Source: Burkholderiales bacterium (GTDB lineage Bacteria > Pseudomonadota > Gammaproteobacteria > Burkholderiales > Burkholderiaceae_A). From it: DNA of 33,889 nt. Where the stretch lies: NCBI GenBank assembly GCA_030834045.1, contig JAURFZ010000001.1:1-33889 (forward strand), read 5' to 3'. A program made the translations under genes and the position numbers. This document shows, piece by piece, positions 1-15,805 of this stretch. The stretch's first letter is position 1. Every line of letters begins with the position of its first letter. The notes under the pieces were generated by a model that was not told the origin of the DNA, ran no database searches, and saw nothing but the letters and a program-made list of their open reading frames with translations.

Positions 1-940
1 CATTGCCAGGATCTGCCCGGTACTGTCGGCTCTGGGGGAAGGCAAGCTCGACATCCGGATAGGGCCAGGGCCATGACGTGCTCATTGCGCCAACCGAAGA
101 CATGTTGCCAATCTTGTTGTAGATGGTCTGGTGGACATGGCCATGGAAAGAGAACGTGTTCTCGAACCTGGCAAGCATGGCACGAATCTCTGCTCCATCT
201 GACGTTCCGAAGCCCCAACGTGGGTAGTAGTCCCACAGAGGTGCGTGACTGAAGAGAACGATAGGCGTGTCGGTGGACTGCTTAGCGAGGTCTTTCTTGA
301 GCCAAGCAAGCTGCTCAGCATGAATGCCCCACAGGCCTCCCCATGGTCCCTCAAGCATGGACATATGAGTCTGGCGCTCGACACCCGTCATTTTCTGGGC
401 AGTCCAGAAGTCGTCAACAAGAATGTTATTTAGGCCGACAAAATGCACGCCCTTGTGATCAAACGACCAGTACTCTTTACGGCCCTTGCGCTGACCGGAC
501 TCGGGGTTGTTCGCACCGTAAAGACCGTTCCAGCCTGTACCCATGTCAACGTACCAGTCATGCTCACCGGGGATGATGACCATCTTGGACTTGATGTTTG
601 AGAGGATCTTCTTGCCTTTTTCAAGCTGGTCCATCGTGCCGTCTTGGGCAATGTCGCCGCCGTAGAGCACGAAGTCAGGCTTAACAGGCAGGTTGTTCAC
701 CTGCTCAATGGCATCCATCAACTGGGTGTCAAACTTGTGGTCTTTGAAGCTGTAAAGATGTGAATCGCTGATAACTGCAAAACGGAAAGGGGTAACCTTC
801 TTTCCGGGCTGCGCATGCACTAAGTCAACAAGACCCAGGTTAACGCCGGCCGCGGTTGCCACCATCGTTGAAAGACCTGCCTTACCTGAGAACTGTAAAA
901 ACTCACGCTTACTACTGTTTTCAATTTTGCTGTCTGCCAT
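1..940 (-). CDS. Calcineurin-like metallophosphoesterase with Tat-like signal (3' end truncated by window edge)
   Basis: Not in the ORF track because it has no stop in the window. Manual translation from ATG 940 (SD AAGGAG) gives MADSKIENSSKREFLQFSGKAG...FAVISDSH...YGGDIAQ...IPGEHDWY...FSHAPL...FHGHVHQ, matching the DxH, GD, G[N/E]HD, H and GHxH metallophosphoesterase motifs. The frame is open to base 2. Confidence 0.9.
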   Translation of the reverse strand, partial: MADSKIENSSKREFLQFSGKAGLSTMVATAAGVNLGLVDLVHAQPGKKVTPFRFAVISDSHLYSFKDHKFDTQLMDAIEQVNNLPVKPDFVLYGGDIAQDGTMDQLEKGKKILSNIKSKMVIIPGEHDWYVDMGTGWNGLYGANNPESGQRKGRKEYWSFDHKGVHFVGLNNILVDDFWTAQKMTGVERQTHMSMLEGPWGGLWGIHAEQLAWLKKDLAKQSTDTPIVLFSHAPLWDYYPRWGFGTSDGAEIRAMLARFENTFSFHGHVHQTIYNKIGNMSSVGAMSTSWPWPYPDVELAFPQSRQYRADPGN

Positions 941-1003
941 TTGGAACTCCTTTAATTAAAGACAACTCCCTCGGTTAAAATACTAAAACCATGTACTAAT
1001 TTC

Positions 1004-1086
1004 GTCTAGGACAAAAACATTAAGATTTGCTTAACAGCCAATATATAAGCCAATCCGCATACATACAAATTGTTTTTGTCCCAGAC
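1004..1086. repeat. 16-bp inverted repeat with 51-bp spacer
   Basis: GTCTAGGACAAAAACA (1004-1019) and TGTTTTTGTCCCAGAC (1071-1086), 15/16 complementary. Confidence 0.8.
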
Positions 1087-1205
1087 AGAAACATGAACGG
1101 AATCTAAGTTCCTTGAAATTTGTTCGAAACCGGGTTTTCCCGTACGCGCAAGGGGTGCTTTGAAAGGAGTTTCTTATGAGTGCCAAAAAGCATCGCTTAT
1201 GAATA

Positions 1206-1249
1206 CGCGGGCGCCCCTCTGGCTGGGCAAATGAGGGGTCGCAACCGCG
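1206..1249 (-). terminator. GC-rich hairpin downstream of pufC (possible terminator or stability stem)
   Basis: CGCGG-GCG-CCCCTC...GAGGGG-TCGC-AA-CCGCG about 40 nt after the pufC stop; no clear U-tract. Confidence 0.35.
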
Positions 1250-1290
1250 GTAAAAGACGTTCGTTTCCTGCCTCGAATAACCCTTAGCGG

Positions 1291-2454
1291 TTATTGAGAT
1301 TCAAGACTTTTGGGATCCTTGCCCTTGTTTTCGATCTTGAACGGGTTGACTTCTGCGACCTGGTCATAGGTTTTGGGGCCGCCCGCGTACGGCAGACGTG
1401 CCTCGACAGCAAGTGCAGGGTAGTCGTTGAGCATGCTTATGCCATTAAGTGGCTTACCGACCCCCTTGTGGCAGGTTGCGCAGGCCACCTTCGGATAGTC
1501 GCCTGAGGCGTTCATTCGATACAGGGGCAGCAAGCTTCCTACCGAATGCAGATAGGTGCTGTTGATATCTCTGACCATCCGAATGCCATACCAGGCCGTG
1601 ACGCGTTGTGGGGAACTCTGCTCCCAGTTGGCGGCAGCCCGGGTGTTATGGCAGAAGGTGCAGTTCACGCCTAAGGATTGACTCATGTAGATCATGAGCC
1701 CATAGGTGTGTTCGCTTTGTTTGACAGAGCGCCGGTTCTCCCCCGCCAGCGCCCTTTCGCCCTGAACTCGAATACTGGGAGAGTCTTTATCTTTTAGAAA
1801 AATAGTGAGAGGGTCGTAGGGCAGGGATGTATTGCCAACGGTCTCAATACCTGGATGGTTCTGCCCGAATCGATGCCCAAGCATGGCAAGCTGATCTTTC
1901 TCATTGCCAATAAACTCGAACCAATCGCCTGAGGGCACAGGCTGCCCACGATGGCAGGTGTAGCAGGTTACGCCTGTGTTGCCCACATGCTTCTTCCAAC
2001 CCTCGTTGATGTTGCGAGTCATCTGCAACATATGCCTTGCGACAACCTTAGGGTATTTTTCATCGGAGGCAAGGTACTTTGGATTGTGGCAATAGGCACA
2101 GCCCTCTTCGGGCGAAACCCAGACAGTGAGGGCCTGCATAAGCCTAGAAAACTCTTGGGTGTTGAGGTCGGTGAGCACCTGAATGTTGAGGTACTTGTCT
2201 TTGGCGAGGATCGGCGGGTTGGCTGGGTCGATCTCAGGGGGTGGCTCAGGCTCAGGAATGGCGTGAAGAGGTGCCTGGGCTCGCTGGGTTTTAGGGTCGT
2301 GGTTGAGCACCATACCTACGCCTCGGTAGCCCAGTTGCTCGGGCTTTGTAGCCTCAATTTTGGAGCCACCAGAGGCCGACAAAAGCGTAACAAGGGCAAT
2401 GCCGACAATGCTCGCCAGCGCGGCGATTACGGGGATAAGAAACAAACGCTTCAT
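1291..2454 (-). CDS. pufC: Photosynthetic reaction centre tetraheme cytochrome c subunit
   Basis: Four CxxCH motifs (CAYCH, CYTCH, CTFCH, CATCH). N-terminal QLGYRGVGM motif. Axial-ligand contexts FSRLM, ARHMLQM, WKKHV and TYGLM as in known PufC. SD AGGAGG. Confidence 0.93.
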   Translation of the reverse strand: MKRLFLIPVIAALASIVGIALVTLLSASGGSKIEATKPEQLGYRGVGMVLNHDPKTQRAQAPLHAIPEPEPPPEIDPANPPILAKDKYLNIQVLTDLNTQEFSRLMQALTVWVSPEEGCAYCHNPKYLASDEKYPKVVARHMLQMTRNINEGWKKHVGNTGVTCYTCHRGQPVPSGDWFEFIGNEKDQLAMLGHRFGQNHPGIETVGNTSLPYDPLTIFLKDKDSPSIRVQGERALAGENRRSVKQSEHTYGLMIYMSQSLGVNCTFCHNTRAAANWEQSSPQRVTAWYGIRMVRDINSTYLHSVGSLLPLYRMNASGDYPKVACATCHKGVGKPLNGISMLNDYPALAVEARLPYAGGPKTYDQVAEVNPFKIENKGKDPKSLESQ

Positions 2455-2571
2455 CCTGCCCTCCTGTCTACCTAGAGTATCGGGTTTGGGGCGCCTTTAA
2501 AGCCTACCGGGGCCTTGATTGGTGACTAGAGACCCCAGTTTGTCCCAGTTCGATTGTGCAAACGGCCTTAC

Positions 2572-2615
2572 TGTAATAATAAATTGACACAGGAAAATGT
2601 CAATGAATCTATACA
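2572..2615 (-). promoter_or_regulatory. Tandem PpsR/CrtJ palindromes overlapping a sigma70-type promoter for pufC
   Basis: Perfect TGT-N12-ACA at 2572-2589 and 2598-2615, 8 bp apart. Minus strand TTGACA (2603-2598)-N16-TATTAT (2581-2576). Confidence 0.88.
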
Positions 2616-2672: not shown

Positions 2673-3176
2673 TTAGACAAAGGGAGCGTTCAGCACAACC
2701 GTGGCAAGGTTCAACATTGCAGCAAAGCTCACCCAGGCAAGATAGGGCCAGAGGATAAGGGCGGCGCGTTTGTTGTAGCGCATGGTGTGACGAATGAGAA
2801 AAACAATGGAGAGCCAAAGCAAGACCACCTCGGCAAGTGCCCAGTCGGGCCGCTGCAGGTAGAAATAAAGCAGGCTCCAGCCCATGTTGGCAAGGCCATT
2901 CAGCGCCCAAAGCAAGAGCAGTTGTGCACGACGGGCGCTAAGGCTTATTTCATCTTCGGCCGCAGTGCGCCAGGCCAACACGCCCGACCAGGCCATCAAA
3001 ATAAAAAGAATGGTCCAGGCTGGGCCGAATAGAAGATCGGGCGGCTTGAACCAGGGCTGCTCAAGGCTGTAGTACCAGTCATCGAGCACGGTAAGACCGC
3101 CGCCAATGGCTGCTACGCCGAAGGCAAGGCCTAGGGCCACCAACCAATCGGTGGCCGTACCGCGAGGGGCCATCAT
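2673..3176 (-). CDS. tspO: Tryptophan-rich sensory protein TspO (CrtK)
   Basis: WYYSLEQPWFKPPDLLFGPAWT, N..WS.LYF and PYLAWVSFA..LN motifs; ATGA overlap with the bchP stop. Confidence 0.95.
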   Translation of the reverse strand: MMAPRGTATDWLVALGLAFGVAAIGGGLTVLDDWYYSLEQPWFKPPDLLFGPAWTILFILMAWSGVLAWRTAAEDEISLSARRAQLLLLWALNGLANMGWSLLYFYLQRPDWALAEVVLLWLSIVFLIRHTMRYNKRAALILWPYLAWVSFAAMLNLATVVLNAPFV

Positions 3177-6897: not shown

Positions 6898-9495
6898 ATG
6901 CACGCCGTAGTGATTGGATCGGGCTTTGGAGGCCTGGCGGCCGCCCTTCGTCTTTGTTGCAAGGGCTACCGTGTAACCGTGCTCGAGCGGCTTGAGGGCC
7001 CAGGGGGCAGGGCCTTTGTTTATAAACAGGACGGCTTCACCTATGACGCTGGGCCCACCATTATTACGGCCCCCTTTCTGTTTGAAGAACTCTGGGCCCT
7101 TTGTGGAAAGCGGTTCTCAGACGATGTTGACCTCCGGCCCATGTGGCCGTTCTACCGCATTCGGTTCGATGACGGCAGCCACTTTGACTATTTCGGCGAG
7201 ACCGAGGCCATGCGCCGGGAAATTACAAGGCTTGCCGGGGCCTCTGAAGTGGCAGGCTACGACGCCTTCATGCGCGAGGCCATGGTCTGTCTAAAGCTTG
7301 GCTATGAAGAACTCGGTACAACGTCTTTTGTAAGCCTGGTGGACCTTATTGCAGCTATGCCTTCTATGGTGCGTATGCAGGCCTGGAACACCATCTACAG
7401 CATGGCTCAGCGTCATTTTAAGAACGACAAACTGCGCCAGGTTTTTAGCTTTCATCCGCTTCTTATTGGCGGCAACCCGTTTGCGGTCACCCAGGTCTAC
7501 AGCCTTATCCCAGCTCTTGAGCGGGAGTACGGGGTGCATTCGGCTATGGGCGGTACGGGCGCCATTGTGCAGGCCCTTGCCCGCCTGGTTGAAGACCAGG
7601 GCGCGGCCATTCGCTATCAGGCCGAGGTGAGTCGCATTCTTCTAGAAGGCCGGCGTGCCGTGGGTGTGGAATTGGCCGATGGCGAGCAGATTCGCGCCGA
7701 TATTGTGGTCTCGAATGCCGACGCGGCCAACACCTACCGTAAGCTTTTACCCAATGCCGCGCGTCGTGTCTGGACGGACGCCAAGGTAGAGCGGGCCGCC
7801 TATTCCATGGGTCTTTTTGTCTGGTACTTCGGCACGCGTCGCCGATACGAAGACATACCGCATCACATGATTCTTCTGGGGCCTCGCTACAAGGGGCTGC
7901 TGCAAGATATCTTCAAGCGAAAGGTGCTCAGTAAAGACTTCAGCCTTTATCTGCATCGGCCAACGGCCACCGACCCTGCGCTCGCGCCCGAGGGCTGTGA
8001 CACCTTTTATGTATTGTCGCCCGTGCCGCATCTTGATGCCGATGTCGACTGGGTGCAGACCGCCGAGCCCTACAGGCAGGCCATTTCTGCCTACCTTGAG
8101 CAGTCGGTGTTGCCAGGGCTTTCGGCCGAGGTCTGCAGTTCAAAGATCATGACCCCACTCGATTTTGAGTCAAGGCTCTGGGCCTATAAAGGTGCGGCCT
8201 TTGGAATGGAGCCAAGGCTGACGCAAAGCGCATGGTTTCGGCCGCACAACCAGAATGAAGACATTGAGGCTCTCTACATGGTGGGGGCAGGCACCCATCC
8301 AGGCGCAGGAGTGCCGGGCGTTCTTAGCTCGGCCAAGGCCTTTGACAGCCTTATTAAGCCCGTGGGTCGGCCGAGCAACGGCAGGCGTCATTCAACGCCC
8401 TGGGTCTTGCCCACTTCCACCCCCACTGCAGCGGCGCAGCCTCAGGGCCAGGCGCACCACGCACGGGTATCGGAAGAGGAATTAATGCGTGGCGGGTCGA
8501 AGTCTTTCTTTGCGGCCTCAAGGCTTTTGCCTAAAACAGTTCGCAATGCCGCGGTCGATCTTTATGCCTACTGCCGCGTAGCCGACGATCGGGTGGATGA
8601 GTCCATGGCAAGTCCTCAGGTTATGCACGAGCTGCATAGCCGGCTAAACACCATTTATAAGGCCCAGTCGCCAGAAGGTCTGCCTATGGTGGACAAGGCG
8701 TTCTGGCGTGTGGTGAGTTGCTACAAAATTCCCAAGGCTGTTCCTCTGGCACTGCTTGAGGGCTTTGAATGGGACGCCCAGGGCCGCGTCTACGAGACCC
8801 TTGAGGATGTCTTTGACTACAGCGCACGGGTGGCAGGCGCCGTAGGCGCCATGATGGCCCTTGTGATGGGCGTGCGGGAGGCGCGGCCAATGGCCCGAGC
8901 CTGCGAGCTGGGTGTGGCCATGCAGCTCACCAACATTGCACGCGATGTTGGCGAAGATGCACGCATGGGACGGCTCTACCTTCCGCGTCAATGGATGCGC
9001 GAAGAGGGCATGGATCCGCAGGACTGGCTGGCTGCGCCTTCCTTTAACCCGGCACTAGCCCGCGTGGTCGAAAGGCTTTTGCAAGAGGCCGATGGCTTGT
9101 ATAAGCGCGCTGAAGAGGGCGTGGGCTTTTTGCCCCGGGCATGCAGGCCCGCCATTATGGCTGCCCGCCATATTTATTCCGACATAGGCCGCGAAATTGG
9201 CAAGGCCCGTTTCAACTCCATCGATCAGCGTGCTGTTGTAAGTTCCTCAAGAAAAATTCAACACCTCTTTCACTGCCTTCCCGCGGCCCTTATGGCGCCA
9301 CGCATGCCGCGCGGTCATAAGCCTCTTGCTGCAATTGCCTTTCTTGTCGAGGCCTCGGGCATTTCGATGCGCAGCCGACCGCCACGCACGGTGGCCGAGA
9401 AGGCAGGCTGGATGGTGGATTTATTCCTTACCCTTGCCGAGCGTGAGCGCCAGGAGAGACACGAACGCAGTCAACCACTTACTGGAGGACGATGA
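6898..9495 (+). CDS. crtIB: Fused phytoene desaturase (CrtI) - phytoene synthase (CrtB)
   Basis: First ~490 aa: GSGFGG, DAGPT, FHPLLIGGNP, GAGTHPGAGVPGV (CrtI). After a ~40-aa linker: GSKSF, YCRVADDRVD, MQLTNIARDVGED, GRLYLP (CrtB). No intervening stop. SD AAGGA. Confidence 0.92.
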   Translation: MHAVVIGSGFGGLAAALRLCCKGYRVTVLERLEGPGGRAFVYKQDGFTYDAGPTIITAPFLFEELWALCGKRFSDDVDLRPMWPFYRIRFDDGSHFDYFGETEAMRREITRLAGASEVAGYDAFMREAMVCLKLGYEELGTTSFVSLVDLIAAMPSMVRMQAWNTIYSMAQRHFKNDKLRQVFSFHPLLIGGNPFAVTQVYSLIPALEREYGVHSAMGGTGAIVQALARLVEDQGAAIRYQAEVSRILLEGRRAVGVELADGEQIRADIVVSNADAANTYRKLLPNAARRVWTDAKVERAAYSMGLFVWYFGTRRRYEDIPHHMILLGPRYKGLLQDIFKRKVLSKDFSLYLHRPTATDPALAPEGCDTFYVLSPVPHLDADVDWVQTAEPYRQAISAYLEQSVLPGLSAEVCSSKIMTPLDFESRLWAYKGAAFGMEPRLTQSAWFRPHNQNEDIEALYMVGAGTHPGAGVPGVLSSAKAFDSLIKPVGRPSNGRRHSTPWVLPTSTPTAAAQPQGQAHHARVSEEELMRGGSKSFFAASRLLPKTVRNAAVDLYAYCRVADDRVDESMASPQVMHELHSRLNTIYKAQSPEGLPMVDKAFWRVVSCYKIPKAVPLALLEGFEWDAQGRVYETLEDVFDYSARVAGAVGAMMALVMGVREARPMARACELGVAMQLTNIARDVGEDARMGRLYLPRQWMREEGMDPQDWLAAPSFNPALARVVERLLQEADGLYKRAEEGVGFLPRACRPAIMAARHIYSDIGREIGKARFNSIDQRAVVSSSRKIQHLFHCLPAALMAPRMPRGHKPLAAIAFLVEASGISMRSRPPRTVAEKAGWMVDLFLTLAERERQERHERSQPLTGGR

Positions 9496-9881
9496 TGAAA
9501 ACGCTTCTTATTTTTTCCCCCGCAAGAATGGGTCCTGAGTTTTTAAATTTGCTCTGCAGGCCACAGCCTGAGTTAAGGCGCATCATCACGTCCTTGGGCT
9601 TTTTTGTTGGCCTGGCTCTTGCGGGCAGTGCCCTTGCAGGTCCAAAGGCAGCCCATTGCAATGCCATTGAAGAAGATGACCAGCGGGCCCTTTGCAAGGC
9701 CTTGGCCACGAAGAGCGGCTTCTTTTGTTCGGCCATTGAAGATGAAAACCTCAAGGCAAACTGCTGGTCGCAGGCAAGTCGCGGAGCCTCGCACTGCAAG
9801 ATGGCGGTCTACGACACCGACTACCCGGTGATTGACCAGGTTCTTATGACCCAGTGCAAGGAACTCTCGCGCAAGTATTGA
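9492..9881 (+). CDS. Small exported cysteine-repeat hypothetical protein
   Basis: SD GGAGG (9484-9488) and ATGA overlap with the crtIB stop. Hydrophobic segment ending in SALA. Repeats CNAIEEDDQRALC and CSAIEDENLKANC plus a third degenerate Cys pair. Confidence 0.75.
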   Translation: MMKTLLIFSPARMGPEFLNLLCRPQPELRRIITSLGFFVGLALAGSALAGPKAAHCNAIEEDDQRALCKALATKSGFFCSAIEDENLKANCWSQASRGASHCKMAVYDTDYPVIDQVLMTQCKELSRKY

Positions 9882-13221: not shown

Positions 13222-14622
13222 TTAATCCTCGTCGGAGTCGGGCCCCTCGATGCCGTAACGACGCAGCTTGACGTAGAGGCTCTGTCGAGAAAGACCAAGC
13301 ATGTCAGCAGCCGAGGCTCGGTTGTTTTTGGTGATTTTCAATGCGGCTTCGATGCAGAGTTTTTCAATGAGGTCGACCGTTTCGCCCACAATTTCGCGCA
13401 GCGGCATACGGCCCACAAGGCCGGTGAGGTCCTGGTTCGAGCGCGGCCGCGAGGCCTGGTCGAGCCTGCCCTCAAGCCGTCGGCCCACGTCGCGAATGAC
13501 AAAGGCCAGAAAGGGCTGGTCGTCGCTTTCAACAGAGATGCCTGAAATTTCAACCGGCACCACAAGCCCGGCATGGCCGATGAGCTGGGTTGAGAAAAGC
13601 CTTACGGGACCACCCTGTGAGAGGCTGTTAGTCATAACAAGAAGGTCGGTATTGGCGCGTCCTAGCCAATGGTTCAGAGGCTCGCCAATGACCTGGCCTG
13701 CGTGGACCATTTGAATCATTTCAACAAAGGCAGGGTTGGCACTTCGAATAATGCCTTTGGTGTCGGTTAAGACCAGTCCATCACTAAACTGACGCACGGC
13801 CTCAAGCAGCGCTGTGTCCTCCCCGGGATGCGGCTTTTCGGAATCGATACGCACCATGAAGACCGTGTCGGACTCTTGCCGAAGGTAGCTTACGAGAACC
13901 CTGGCCGAGCCCTCGTGCTTAACAAACCGCAGGCTGACCTCGGCGGGTCTGCCTGAACTTGCTACCTGTTGAAGGGTGCTGTGCAAGGCCGAGGTTGCGC
14001 GGTCGGACAAGAAGGCCTCAATGGCCTCGCCAATAATGGACTGACGGTCTTTCTGAAGGTACTGTCCGCCGGCACGGTTGGCTTCGATAATTTGATGAGA
14101 ACGCGCGCTAATAAGCAACACCGGATCGTGGACGAGATCGAAGAGCATTCGAAACTGCCCCTCCACACCGCGAAGTCGCAGATAGTCGCGCTCCATAAGC
14201 TGCTGGGCTTCCACCAGCCTTGCCTGCAGCGAGGCAACAGGCCGAAGGTCGCGACCAATGGCCACCATCTGCCCCTCTTTGCCGATGCGAACAAGGGAAA
14301 AGAGGATAGGTATTTCTTCGTCTTGTTCGCTGAGTTGGTTAATGTGCCGCCAGCGGGCATCAGGCTTTCCAGCCTGTGCTTCGCGCAGCATTTCTTCAAT
14401 TTTGGGGCGGCTCTCCGAGGTAACTACATTCGCCCAGGCCTTGCCTACCCAGCCTTGCGCGCGACTGGGCTGCCAGTCGGTGCTGCCTGTAATGGCCTGG
14501 CGAATCACGCCCTGGGCGTCGATGACCAAGGTAATGTCGGCCGCGGCTGTAACAAGTGCAGCACTCTCGTCAGCATCAAGACCCGCAAGTCCCTTGCCTT
14601 TAGATTGTTCGTTGTAGCCCAA
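13222..14622 (-). CDS. ppsR: Photosynthesis repressor PpsR (PAS domains plus Fis-type HTH)
   Basis: AAADITLVID, VTSESRPKI, LVEAQQLMERDY, IEKLCIEAAL..NNRASAADMLGLSRQSLYVKLRRYG. TTG start uncertain. Confidence 0.95.
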   Translation of the reverse strand: MGYNEQSKGKGLAGLDADESAALVTAAADITLVIDAQGVIRQAITGSTDWQPSRAQGWVGKAWANVVTSESRPKIEEMLREAQAGKPDARWRHINQLSEQDEEIPILFSLVRIGKEGQMVAIGRDLRPVASLQARLVEAQQLMERDYLRLRGVEGQFRMLFDLVHDPVLLISARSHQIIEANRAGGQYLQKDRQSIIGEAIEAFLSDRATSALHSTLQQVASSGRPAEVSLRFVKHEGSARVLVSYLRQESDTVFMVRIDSEKPHPGEDTALLEAVRQFSDGLVLTDTKGIIRSANPAFVEMIQMVHAGQVIGEPLNHWLGRANTDLLVMTNSLSQGGPVRLFSTQLIGHAGLVVPVEISGISVESDDQPFLAFVIRDVGRRLEGRLDQASRPRSNQDLTGLVGRMPLREIVGETVDLIEKLCIEAALKITKNNRASAADMLGLSRQSLYVKLRRYGIEGPDSDED

Positions 14623-15764: not shown

Positions 15765-15805
15765 TGTCTCGTTTGGTTGACATTCTAAGGACCCGAGCCT
15801 AGAGT
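15765..15805 (+). promoter_or_regulatory. PpsR site overlapping the -35 of the bchF promoter
   Basis: Perfect TGT-N12-ACA at 15765-15782; TTGACA (15777-15782)-N17-TAGAGT (15800-15805). Confidence 0.85.

What the first reader, a model, noticed from the sequence alone, without database searches (positions are those of the whole stretch)
1291..2615. pufC detached from pufLM, with its own PpsR-controlled promoter
Established: pufC normally follows pufM in pufBALMC. Seen: an intact tetraheme pufC follows tspO with no pufL/M nearby. It has a near-consensus promoter (TTGACA-N16-TATTAT) covered by two perfect TGT-N12-ACA boxes 8 bp apart, the geometry of CrtJ/PpsR sites at the Rhodobacter capsulatus bchC promoter, and a ~110-nt leader. 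Inference: the RC cytochrome is regulated separately from the RC core, either as a relocated sole copy or as a second, exchangeable donor-side subunit. This is the best candidate for a new system here.
Basis: partly seen in the sequence, partly recalled or inferred. Interest (0 to 1): 0.8.

Follow-up and report, generated by a model that had tools for sequence, protein, structure and literature searches.

The report
Second reaction-centre cytochrome with donor module
This photosynthetic bacterium carries a second, distinct copy of the reaction-centre cytochrome gene at the head of a conserved cassette found in many purple bacteria, which likely gives the photosystem a dedicated entry port for electrons from an undescribed, probably sulfur-oxidising, enzyme.

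Summary
The window gene is a second tetraheme (PufC2) from a separate clade (34 vs 52 rows, support 100/100). It heads a cassette: pufC2, a twin-arginine metallophosphoesterase, a SoxA/TsdA-like single-heme cytochrome, an Lcl protein and HiPIP, often with soxYZ. I found the cassette in 21 genomes of three Burkholderiales families and the Chromatiaceae; all 21 keep a second pufC. All heme ligands are kept, while the HiPIP-docking face is remodelled. A model supports binding of the phosphoesterase to the cytochrome (0.78, best control 0.00). In non-phototrophs the same pair sits beside peroxidases or oxidases. Best reading: a new periplasmic oxidation module, likely for an inorganic sulfur compound, wired to the reaction centre through its own HiPIP and PufC2. 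Reaction-centre binding and substrate are untested. Seven literature searches found no description. The scan noted this cassette twice before on other DNA (e1-5175287, e1-2376985).

The parts
1291..2454 (-). pufC2: second tetraheme reaction-centre-type cytochrome, 387 aa
   Evidence: NF040706 420 bits; PF02276; separate clade; model matches RC cytochrome chains, best 7xxf_C E 4e-25
2389..2445 (-). N-terminal hydrophobic helix (aa 4-22) with no lipobox Cys; predicted uncleaved membrane anchor
   Evidence: mean hydropathy 2.8 and no Cys before aa 119; helix 2-30 in the model
2218..2259 (-). acidic proline-rich loop (aa 66-79) typical of PufC2, beside the heme-1 docking face
   Evidence: diagnostic columns; mean D+E in aa 64-86 is 6.2 in PufC2 against 2.2 in canonical PufC
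2086..2100 (-). heme-binding motif 1 (CxxCH); the other three are at 1951-1965, 1648-1662 and 1468-1482
   Evidence: axial ligands M106, M142, H156 and M254 invariant in 137 of 137 PufC2 and 99 of 99 canonical rows
2572..2589 (.). PpsR/CrtJ-type palindrome TGT-N12-ACA, covering the -10 hexamer (2576-2581)
2598..2615 (.). second TGT-N12-ACA palindrome, 8 bp from the first, covering the -35 hexamer (2598-2603)
2..940 (-). metallophosphoesterase-fold protein with a twin-arginine-like leader and GEHD motif; second gene of the cassette, cut by the contig end (313 of 351 aa)
   Evidence: PF00149; 99.7% identical to the G011/G024 copies; fold closest to GpdQ, Z 21.9
1003..1087 (.). two TGTC-N3-GAC(A/G) palindromes (1003-1013, 1077-1087) upstream of the phosphoesterase; possible separate regulator site, unidentified
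   Evidence: sequence; found upstream of the gene in G011, G018, G028 and G073
2673..3176 (-). tspO, upstream neighbour; the cassette sits between tspO and the canonical pufC
   Evidence: tspO faces the canonical pufC directly in G004, G006, G007, G010, G017 and G018
13222..14622 (-). ppsR, the likely regulator of the pufC2 promoter
   Evidence: TIGR02040 450 bits
14638..15672 (-). B12-binding AerR/PpaA-type antirepressor gene next to ppsR (name recalled from the domain and position)
   Evidence: PF02310

Best explanation
The window gene is a second reaction-centre-type tetraheme cytochrome (PufC2) that heads a conserved cassette, and it likely serves as an alternative reaction-centre subunit receiving electrons, through the cassette's own HiPIP, from a predicted periplasmic phosphoesterase-cytochrome complex that probably oxidises an inorganic sulfur compound. 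Shown: second copy, separate clade, intact heme ligands, conserved cassette, conserved promoter boxes. Predicted: the phosphoesterase binds the single-heme cytochrome. Inferred: the heme's distal Cys takes up a sulfur oxyanion as in TsdA/SoxA, the two-metal site hydrolyses it as SoxB does, SoxYZ carries the sulfur where it is present, and electrons pass to HiPIP, then heme 1 of PufC2, then the oxidised special pair. In this lineage PpsR boxes would tie PufC2 synthesis to photosystem synthesis.
For: (1) Co-occurrence: among 58 family relatives, the same 6 have a second pufC and the SoxA-like cytochrome; kin are not independent. (2) The cassette is present in 21 genomes of four families (split over two contigs in G017, cut by contig ends in G000 and G296), and all 21 have two pufC matches. 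(3) Only 1 of 27 genomes with the phosphoesterase-cytochrome pair but no pufC2 in the fetched stretch has pufLM. (4) In 24 of 29 such loci the pair lies beside another heme protein: peroxidase/MauG family 16, cbb3-like oxidase 4, c554-like multiheme 2, small cytochromes 1, P460 1. PufC2 plus HiPIP thus takes the place of an electron sink. (5) Three of the five HiPIP-contact positions of Tch. tepidum (PMC7889895, passages) differ systematically: T91 is S in 125 of 137, V95 is Q in 113 of 137, T98 is S in 99 of 137. (6) Complex model: score 0.78, best of 3 controls 0.00; the mark was reached by 116 of 157 solved and 2 of 215 mismatched pairs; runs agree in at least 63% of contacts; partner pLDDT at least 89; own alignments were used. 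Invariant W242, W290, W292 and P293 pack on the CxxCH region. (7) The cytochrome's invariant C105 aligns with TsdA Cys96 and with a Cys of SoxA. (8) soxYZ lie inside or beside the cassette in 10 of 21 genomes, with the GGC arm kept in those printed. Family f3 has this soxYZ but no SoxA or SoxB over cut-off (0 of 5 each). (9) SoxB is found in 21 of 37 class genomes with the cytochrome against 100 of 362 without.
Against: No experiment shows PufC2 on a reaction centre, and I did not model PufC2 with L and M. Four of 5 near-complete non-phototroph genomes with the phosphoesterase-cytochrome-Lcl triplet have no SoxY, and 16 of 37 carriers lack SoxB, so SoxYZ is not obligatory and the substrate may not be sulfur. 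The Arg residues that bind substrate in TsdA (Arg109, Arg119; PMC6879331, passages) are not seen in the single-heme cytochrome. The phosphoesterase fails TIGR04486 and is structurally closer to GpdQ (Z 21.9) than to SoxB (Z 10.8). Close relatives already have a full soxCDYZAXB cluster, so plain thiosulfate oxidation would be redundant. No PpsR box lies upstream of pufC2 in 4 loci where it is the last gene, and only 1 of 6 further Chromatiaceae has one. The MauG-family neighbours could be maturases rather than electron sinks.
Confidence: 0.52

Rival explanations
1. The wiring is as described (module to HiPIP to PufC2 to reaction centre), but the donor is not sulfur: a reduced metal, a nitrogen compound or a phospho-ester-derived substrate.
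For: 4 of 5 non-phototroph triplet carriers lack SoxY; 16 of 37 carriers lack SoxB; the TsdA arginines are missing; the fold is closest to a phosphodiesterase.
Against: soxYZ with an intact Cys arm lie in or beside 10 of 21 cassettes; in f3 they have no canonical SoxA or SoxB partner; SoxB is enriched among carriers.
Confidence: 0.17
2. PufC2 no longer docks on the reaction centre. It is a membrane- or wall-anchored tetraheme relay that links the module to the shared HiPIP/cytochrome pool or to oxidases.
For: Clade-wide changes outside the donor face (Y256 in 137 of 137 against H in 95 of 99; Q231, K330). Several Chromatiaceae copies carry a long extension, with an OmpA domain confirmed in one. 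The canonical copy is always kept.
Against: PufC2 was found only in genomes that keep the canonical copy. All four axial ligands and R284 are invariant. Photosystem-type promoter boxes are conserved in 11 of 16 loci. G018 has an intact second pufM beside the cassette.
Confidence: 0.2
3. PufC2 is simply an alternative housekeeping subunit for other light or oxygen conditions, and the neighbouring genes only travel with it.
For: It has its own promoter boxes, while the phosphoesterase has different upstream palindromes; gene order varies.
Against: No fetched pufC2 locus lacked the other genes except G017, where both halves sit at contig ends. Linkage persists across four families despite reshuffling. 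The HiPIP-contact positions are remodelled.
Confidence: 0.08
4. The gene is a relocated sole pufC, or the layout is a misassembly.
For: No pufLM lies in the window.
Against: A canonical pufC follows pufM on C20; both junctions are bridged by contigs of run X6; G011 and G024 have the same layout.
Confidence: 0.01

Closest known systems
Canonical RC-bound tetraheme PufC of the pufBALMC operon (Tch. tepidum 5Y5S/7C52, Rhodopila globiformis 7XXF)
   Same: Same fold, four CxxCH motifs and all axial ligands; about 50% identity. A Cys-less transmembrane N-terminus is known from Rhodopila (PMC9640540, passages).
   Different: It is not behind pufM, is always a second copy, forms its own clade, and has an acidic loop and changed HiPIP-contact residues; some copies have a long extension ending in OmpA.
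TsdA to HiPIP to RC route of Allochromatium vinosum
   Same: A periplasmic His/Cys-heme cytochrome with HiPIP as natural redox partner (PMC6879331, passages); HiPIP docks at heme 1 of PufC (PMC7889895, passages).
   Different: The cytochrome here has one heme and lacks the TsdA arginines, is paired with a metallophosphoesterase, and comes with its own HiPIP and its own PufC.
Sox system (SoxXA, SoxYZ, SoxB, SoxCD)
   Same: A SoxA-like heme domain, a metallophosphoesterase-fold hydrolase and, in 10 of 21 genomes, SoxYZ.
   Different: No SoxX or SoxCD in the cassette; both proteins miss the SoxA and SoxB cut-offs; the hydrolase is a 351-aa single domain with GEHD; an Lcl protein is added.
TsdA plus SoxB-like pathway of Erythrobacter flavus 21-3 (PMC7608252, passages)
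   Same: A carrier-free pairing of a His/Cys cytochrome with a metallophosphatase that hydrolyses a polythionate.
   Different: There TsdA is 36 kDa and the hydrolase is a 5'-nucleotidase-type SoxB homologue; the passages read show no link to a reaction centre.

Membership tests
PufC (RC tetraheme cytochrome) | Family model over cut-off and four CxxCH motifs | tested here: met
   NF040706 420 vs 150
PufC (RC tetraheme cytochrome) | Three His/Met hemes and one bis-His heme | tested here: met
   M106, M142, M254 and H156 invariant; ligation pattern from PMC7889895; the assignment of positions rests on alignment and recalled Blastochloris numbering
PufC (RC tetraheme cytochrome) | Membrane anchor (lipobox Cys or N-terminal helix) | tested here: met
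   Hydrophobic helix with no Cys in the window copy; Cys present in 92 of 101 scorable homologues
PufC (RC tetraheme cytochrome) | Encoded directly after pufM | tested here: not met
   0 of 99 after-pufM sequences fall in the PufC2 clade
PufC (RC tetraheme cytochrome) | Bound to the L/M core and reduces the special pair | not testable with these tools
PpsR/CrtJ regulon | Paired TGT-N12-ACA overlapping a promoter, with ppsR present | tested here: met
PpsR/CrtJ regulon | PpsR binds and controls transcription | not testable with these tools
   needs EMSA and 5'-end mapping; only contigs, no raw reads, were served
Sox system | SoxB-family hydrolase | tested here: not met
   No TIGR04486 hit; SoxB 2wdc Z 10.8, rmsd 4.3, 203 aligned, against GpdQ Z 21.9
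Sox system | SoxA over cut-off with a SoxX partner | tested here: not met
   TIGR04484 about 40 bits vs 110; no SoxX match in the cassette loci
Sox system | SoxYZ carrier with C-terminal Cys arm | tested here: inconclusive
   In or beside 10 of 21 cassettes; not in the window lineage's cassette; absent from 4 of 5 non-phototroph carriers
TsdA thiosulfate dehydrogenase | Two hemes and substrate-binding arginines | tested here: not met
   One CxxCH and 171 aa; no invariant Arg
TsdA thiosulfate dehydrogenase | Distal Cys ligand at the Cys96 position | tested here: met
   C105 invariant in 79 of 79 and aligned with TsdA Cys96; the ligation itself is inferred
HiPIP | PF01355 over cut-off | tested here: met
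   4 of 4 tested

The most novel reading that the evidence does not exclude
Purple bacteria build a second kind of reaction centre whose cytochrome subunit (and in one genome also the M subunit) is swapped to plug in a dedicated linear electron-donor chain. The donor enzyme is a new two-component sulfur oxidase/hydrolase, independent of SoxAX and SoxB, which non-phototrophs couple to peroxidases or oxidases instead. This would be a new route of photolithotrophy in abundant estuarine and freshwater bacteria.
Probability: 0.35. Interest if true: 0.92.

Novelty: new variant of a known kind. Interest (0 to 1): 0.8.

Why it matters
PufC is treated as a single fixed subunit encoded behind pufM, or lost (PMC6920907, passages). 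A widespread second clade that travels with its own HiPIP and an uncharacterised enzyme suggests that the reaction centre's donor side is modular. It makes two questions testable: how aerobic-type phototrophs with RuBisCO obtain external electrons for light-driven carbon fixation, and what a phosphoesterase-cytochrome pair found in 38 of 401 sampled genomes of the class does (one of the 38, G488, is an unpublished genome). A named non-MAG record (Thiohalocapsa sp. ML1) carries the full cassette, so experiments look feasible.

Tried and rejected
Literature: seven searches found no description of a second pufC clade or of this cassette; three of them returned no paper at all. The library lacks most subscription papers, and I read no supplements. 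One paper mentions multiple pufC copies in Thiocapsa sp. LSW in passing (PMC8767323, one passage). PMC13500833 (passages) covers Sox evolution and has no hit for 'phosphoesterase'. A further search on RuBisCO/Sox/pufM in freshwater Burkholderiales (listing only) did not identify the host lineage. Atlas: one look-up was answered and gave only automatic SoxA-TsdA names; no Atlas result exists for the phosphoesterase. Plasmids: only 7 distant PufC hits at under 60% identity, so a plasmid vehicle is not shown. GC3 of pufC2 (0.63) equals that of host genes: no sign of recent foreign origin. RNA: contigs of 4 of 4 RNA runs (3 studies) cover parts of pufC2 and the phosphoesterase, but contigs cannot show starts, strand or level. 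One RNA contig spans tspO-pufC2 and one spans pufC2-phosphoesterase, so exclusive use of the own promoter is not shown. A search for ammonia/methane monooxygenase in 5 non-phototroph carriers rang nowhere, controls included, and is uninformative. Rows left out: L054 and L055 were first labelled 'cassette' because a HiPIP is adjacent; they lack the other genes, fall among canonical PufC and were not counted as PufC2. Those two and the two Ferrovum rows were in no group in the tree counts. Four loci with the pair (L255, L257, L370, L375) were not in the neighbour scan. G488 (unpublished) and G696 (not scored) were left out of the SoxB comparison. The 119 homologues were chosen by similarity to the query and their gene context was not seen, so their clustering is expected; the 34-versus-52 tree includes 10 of them.

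Full report
Observation. The window is a photosynthesis gene cluster (bch, crt, ppsR, puh) on contig C111 of a 1.57-Mb, 76%-complete genome. The closest titled records are Burkholderiaceae/Burkholderiales MAGs, and the runs that hold the DNA are mostly estuarine. The ORF 1291-2454 (-) is an intact PufC. The pair is unlikely by chance and is the only closely spaced pair in the genome. Contigs of an independent DNA run bridge both junctions.

It is a second copy. The genome has bchZ-pufB-ORF-pufA-pufL-pufM-pufC on contig C20, the last gene with a lipobox and cut by the contig end. In G024, C20 and the window are collinear with 2,455 bp between them. In G011 and G024 that stretch reads: canonical pufC facing HiPIP, Lcl, SoxA-like cytochrome, phosphoesterase and pufC2, followed upstream by tspO. 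In relatives without the cassette at this site, tspO faces the canonical pufC directly, so the cassette likely entered that gap (inferred; no rooted test was made).

The cassette is conserved and reshuffled. Among 58 family relatives, exactly the 6 with two pufC genes have the SoxA-like cytochrome; a seventh weak hit (G012, E 2e-4) lies beside soxY and is probably true SoxA. The cassette also occurs in 5 genomes of family f3, in G235, in two Thiohalocapsa genomes and in 6 further Chromatiaceae; 7 of 46 pufC-bearing genomes sampled from that family have a PufC2-type copy. That makes 21 genomes with the window's own, all with two pufC matches. For 15 of them I saw the other copy behind pufM; for 6 Chromatiaceae I did not fetch it. 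Gene order varies (pufC2 first, last or divergent), and soxYZ lie inside or beside the cassette in 10 of 21.

PufC2 is its own clade. In a 240-row FastTree, 18 cassette copies and all 119 top homologues lie on one side of a branch with support 1.0, with none of 99 after-pufM copies. An IQ-TREE of 90 rows that includes canonical Chromatiaceae copies separates 34 PufC2 from 52 canonical rows at 100/100; the tree is unrooted. All axial ligands are kept, and the model matches RC cytochrome structures. Diagnostic changes include an acidic proline-rich loop, E132, Q231, Y256 and K330. Aligned to Tch. tepidum, three of the five residues that line the HiPIP path (Tyr76, Thr91, Val95, Thr98, Trp116; PMC7889895, passages) are clade-specific. 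The cassette HiPIPs are net positive, but so are the housekeeping ones, so charge alone does not show specificity. Most PufC2 keep a lipobox Cys (92 of 101); the window lineage and f3 lack it and likely use a membrane helix, as Rhodopila does (PMC9640540, passages).

Regulation. At least one perfect box lies upstream of pufC2 in 11 of 16 loci, with a perfect pair spaced 8 bp in 7. There is none in 4 loci where pufC2 follows soxYZ-HiPIP and none in one locus cut short. In Rubrivivax an engineered perfect 8-bp pair bound PpsR tightly without redox dependence (PMC4452267, passages). The phosphoesterase has different upstream palindromes. RNA contigs from 4 of 4 metatranscriptomes cover both genes in part, which shows presence in RNA libraries, not starts or levels.

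The partner enzyme. The phosphoesterase has invariant D59, H61, D96, E126, H127, H232, H268 and H270 in 54 of 54 rows, with Glu where GpdQ has Asn. It is not SoxB. The cytochrome has one CxxCH and an invariant C105 at the TsdA Cys96 position, the residue needed for TsdA catalysis (PMC6879331, passages), but no conserved Arg. A complex model supports binding: 0.78 against 0.00 for the best control, 116 of 157 solved and 2 of 215 mismatched pairs reaching the mark, at least 63% contact agreement, partner pLDDT at least 89; invariant tryptophans pack on the heme-binding motif. This is model confidence, not a measurement. The pair is common outside phototrophs (38 of 401 class genomes; 1 of 27 tested has pufLM). 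There it lies beside a peroxidase/MauG-family protein, a cbb3-like oxidase or other cytochromes in 24 of 29 loci scanned. I read this as a donor module that is linked to whichever electron sink the host uses (inferred).

Which donor. For sulfur: linked soxYZ with the Cys arm; f3 genomes with this soxYZ but no canonical SoxA or SoxB; SoxB in 21 of 37 carriers against 100 of 362 others (kin are not independent). Against an obligate Sox role: 4 of 5 non-phototroph carriers of the triplet lack SoxY, and the window's relatives already have soxCDYZAXB. A substrate that canonical Sox handles poorly, such as a polythionate, would fit both, by analogy with E. flavus 21-3 (PMC7608252, passages); this is a guess. 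The window's genome and all 6 cassette-bearing family relatives have RuBisCO, but so do many relatives without the cassette, and 0 of 4 f3 genomes have it, so carbon fixation is not required.

Verdict. It works like the TsdA-HiPIP-RC route or a minimal Sox system but is a member of neither, and I found no description in print (no supplements read). Two earlier notes of this scan describe the same cassette in other genomes. I had reached this reading before seeing them (notes), and they are not independent evidence.

Noticed in passing
L037:13628-14611 (G018): An intact second pufM (88% identical to that genome's own pufM) faces the cassette, outside the photosynthesis cluster, with its own pair of TGT-N12-ACA boxes; only 1 of 5 cassette genomes checked has three PF00124 matches.
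   Followed up: partly
L052:9815-13372; L443-L447: Chromatiaceae PufC2 proteins often carry a long C-terminal extension (frames of 725-1358 aa); an OmpA domain is confirmed in Thiohalocapsa sp. ML1.
   Followed up: partly
window 6898-9495: crtI and crtB are fused in one 865-aa frame; also fused in G011, separate in G006 and G007.
   Followed up: no
window 9492-9881: A 129-aa Cys-containing ORF with no Pfam or NCBIfam hit; a 70%-identical homologue sits just upstream of pufC2 in G018.
   Followed up: partly
L054, L055, L058: Other detached pufC copies outside the PufC2 clade: one with a facing HiPIP in two Burkholderiales MAGs, and a second pufC about 4.4 kb behind the canonical one in a Ferrovum MAG.
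   Followed up: partly
L448 (G881): Two pufLMC operons about 15 kb apart in one Chromatiaceae genome.
   Followed up: no
L166 and L333 (G073): The cassette lies just upstream of cbbR-cbbLS and about 12 kb from a full sox cluster.
   Followed up: no
G000:C103; L330: A second SoxY-like gene ending in AACAG lies beside a molybdopterin oxidoreductase-like gene pair in the window's genome and in G024 (the oxidoreductase label is from sequence likeness, not a family scan).
   Followed up: no
window 1-940 against 1291-2454: RNA contigs over the phosphoesterase are much deeper than those over pufC2 in 3 of 4 runs and end near 956-1080; the tool says contig depth cannot rank genes, so this is only a hint of a separate promoter.
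   Followed up: no
window 393-2614: One contig of DNA run X2 joins 393 to 2614 (shorter side 30 letters); a strain lacking pufC2 or a chance match.
   Followed up: no
window 15765-15782: A single perfect TGT-N12-ACA box between the aerR-type gene and bchF.
   Followed up: no
L380, L381, L199, L226: The phosphoesterase-cytochrome pair is followed by a COX1 gene and a FixO-cytochrome c fusion, an unusual cbb3-like oxidase pair.
   Followed up: no
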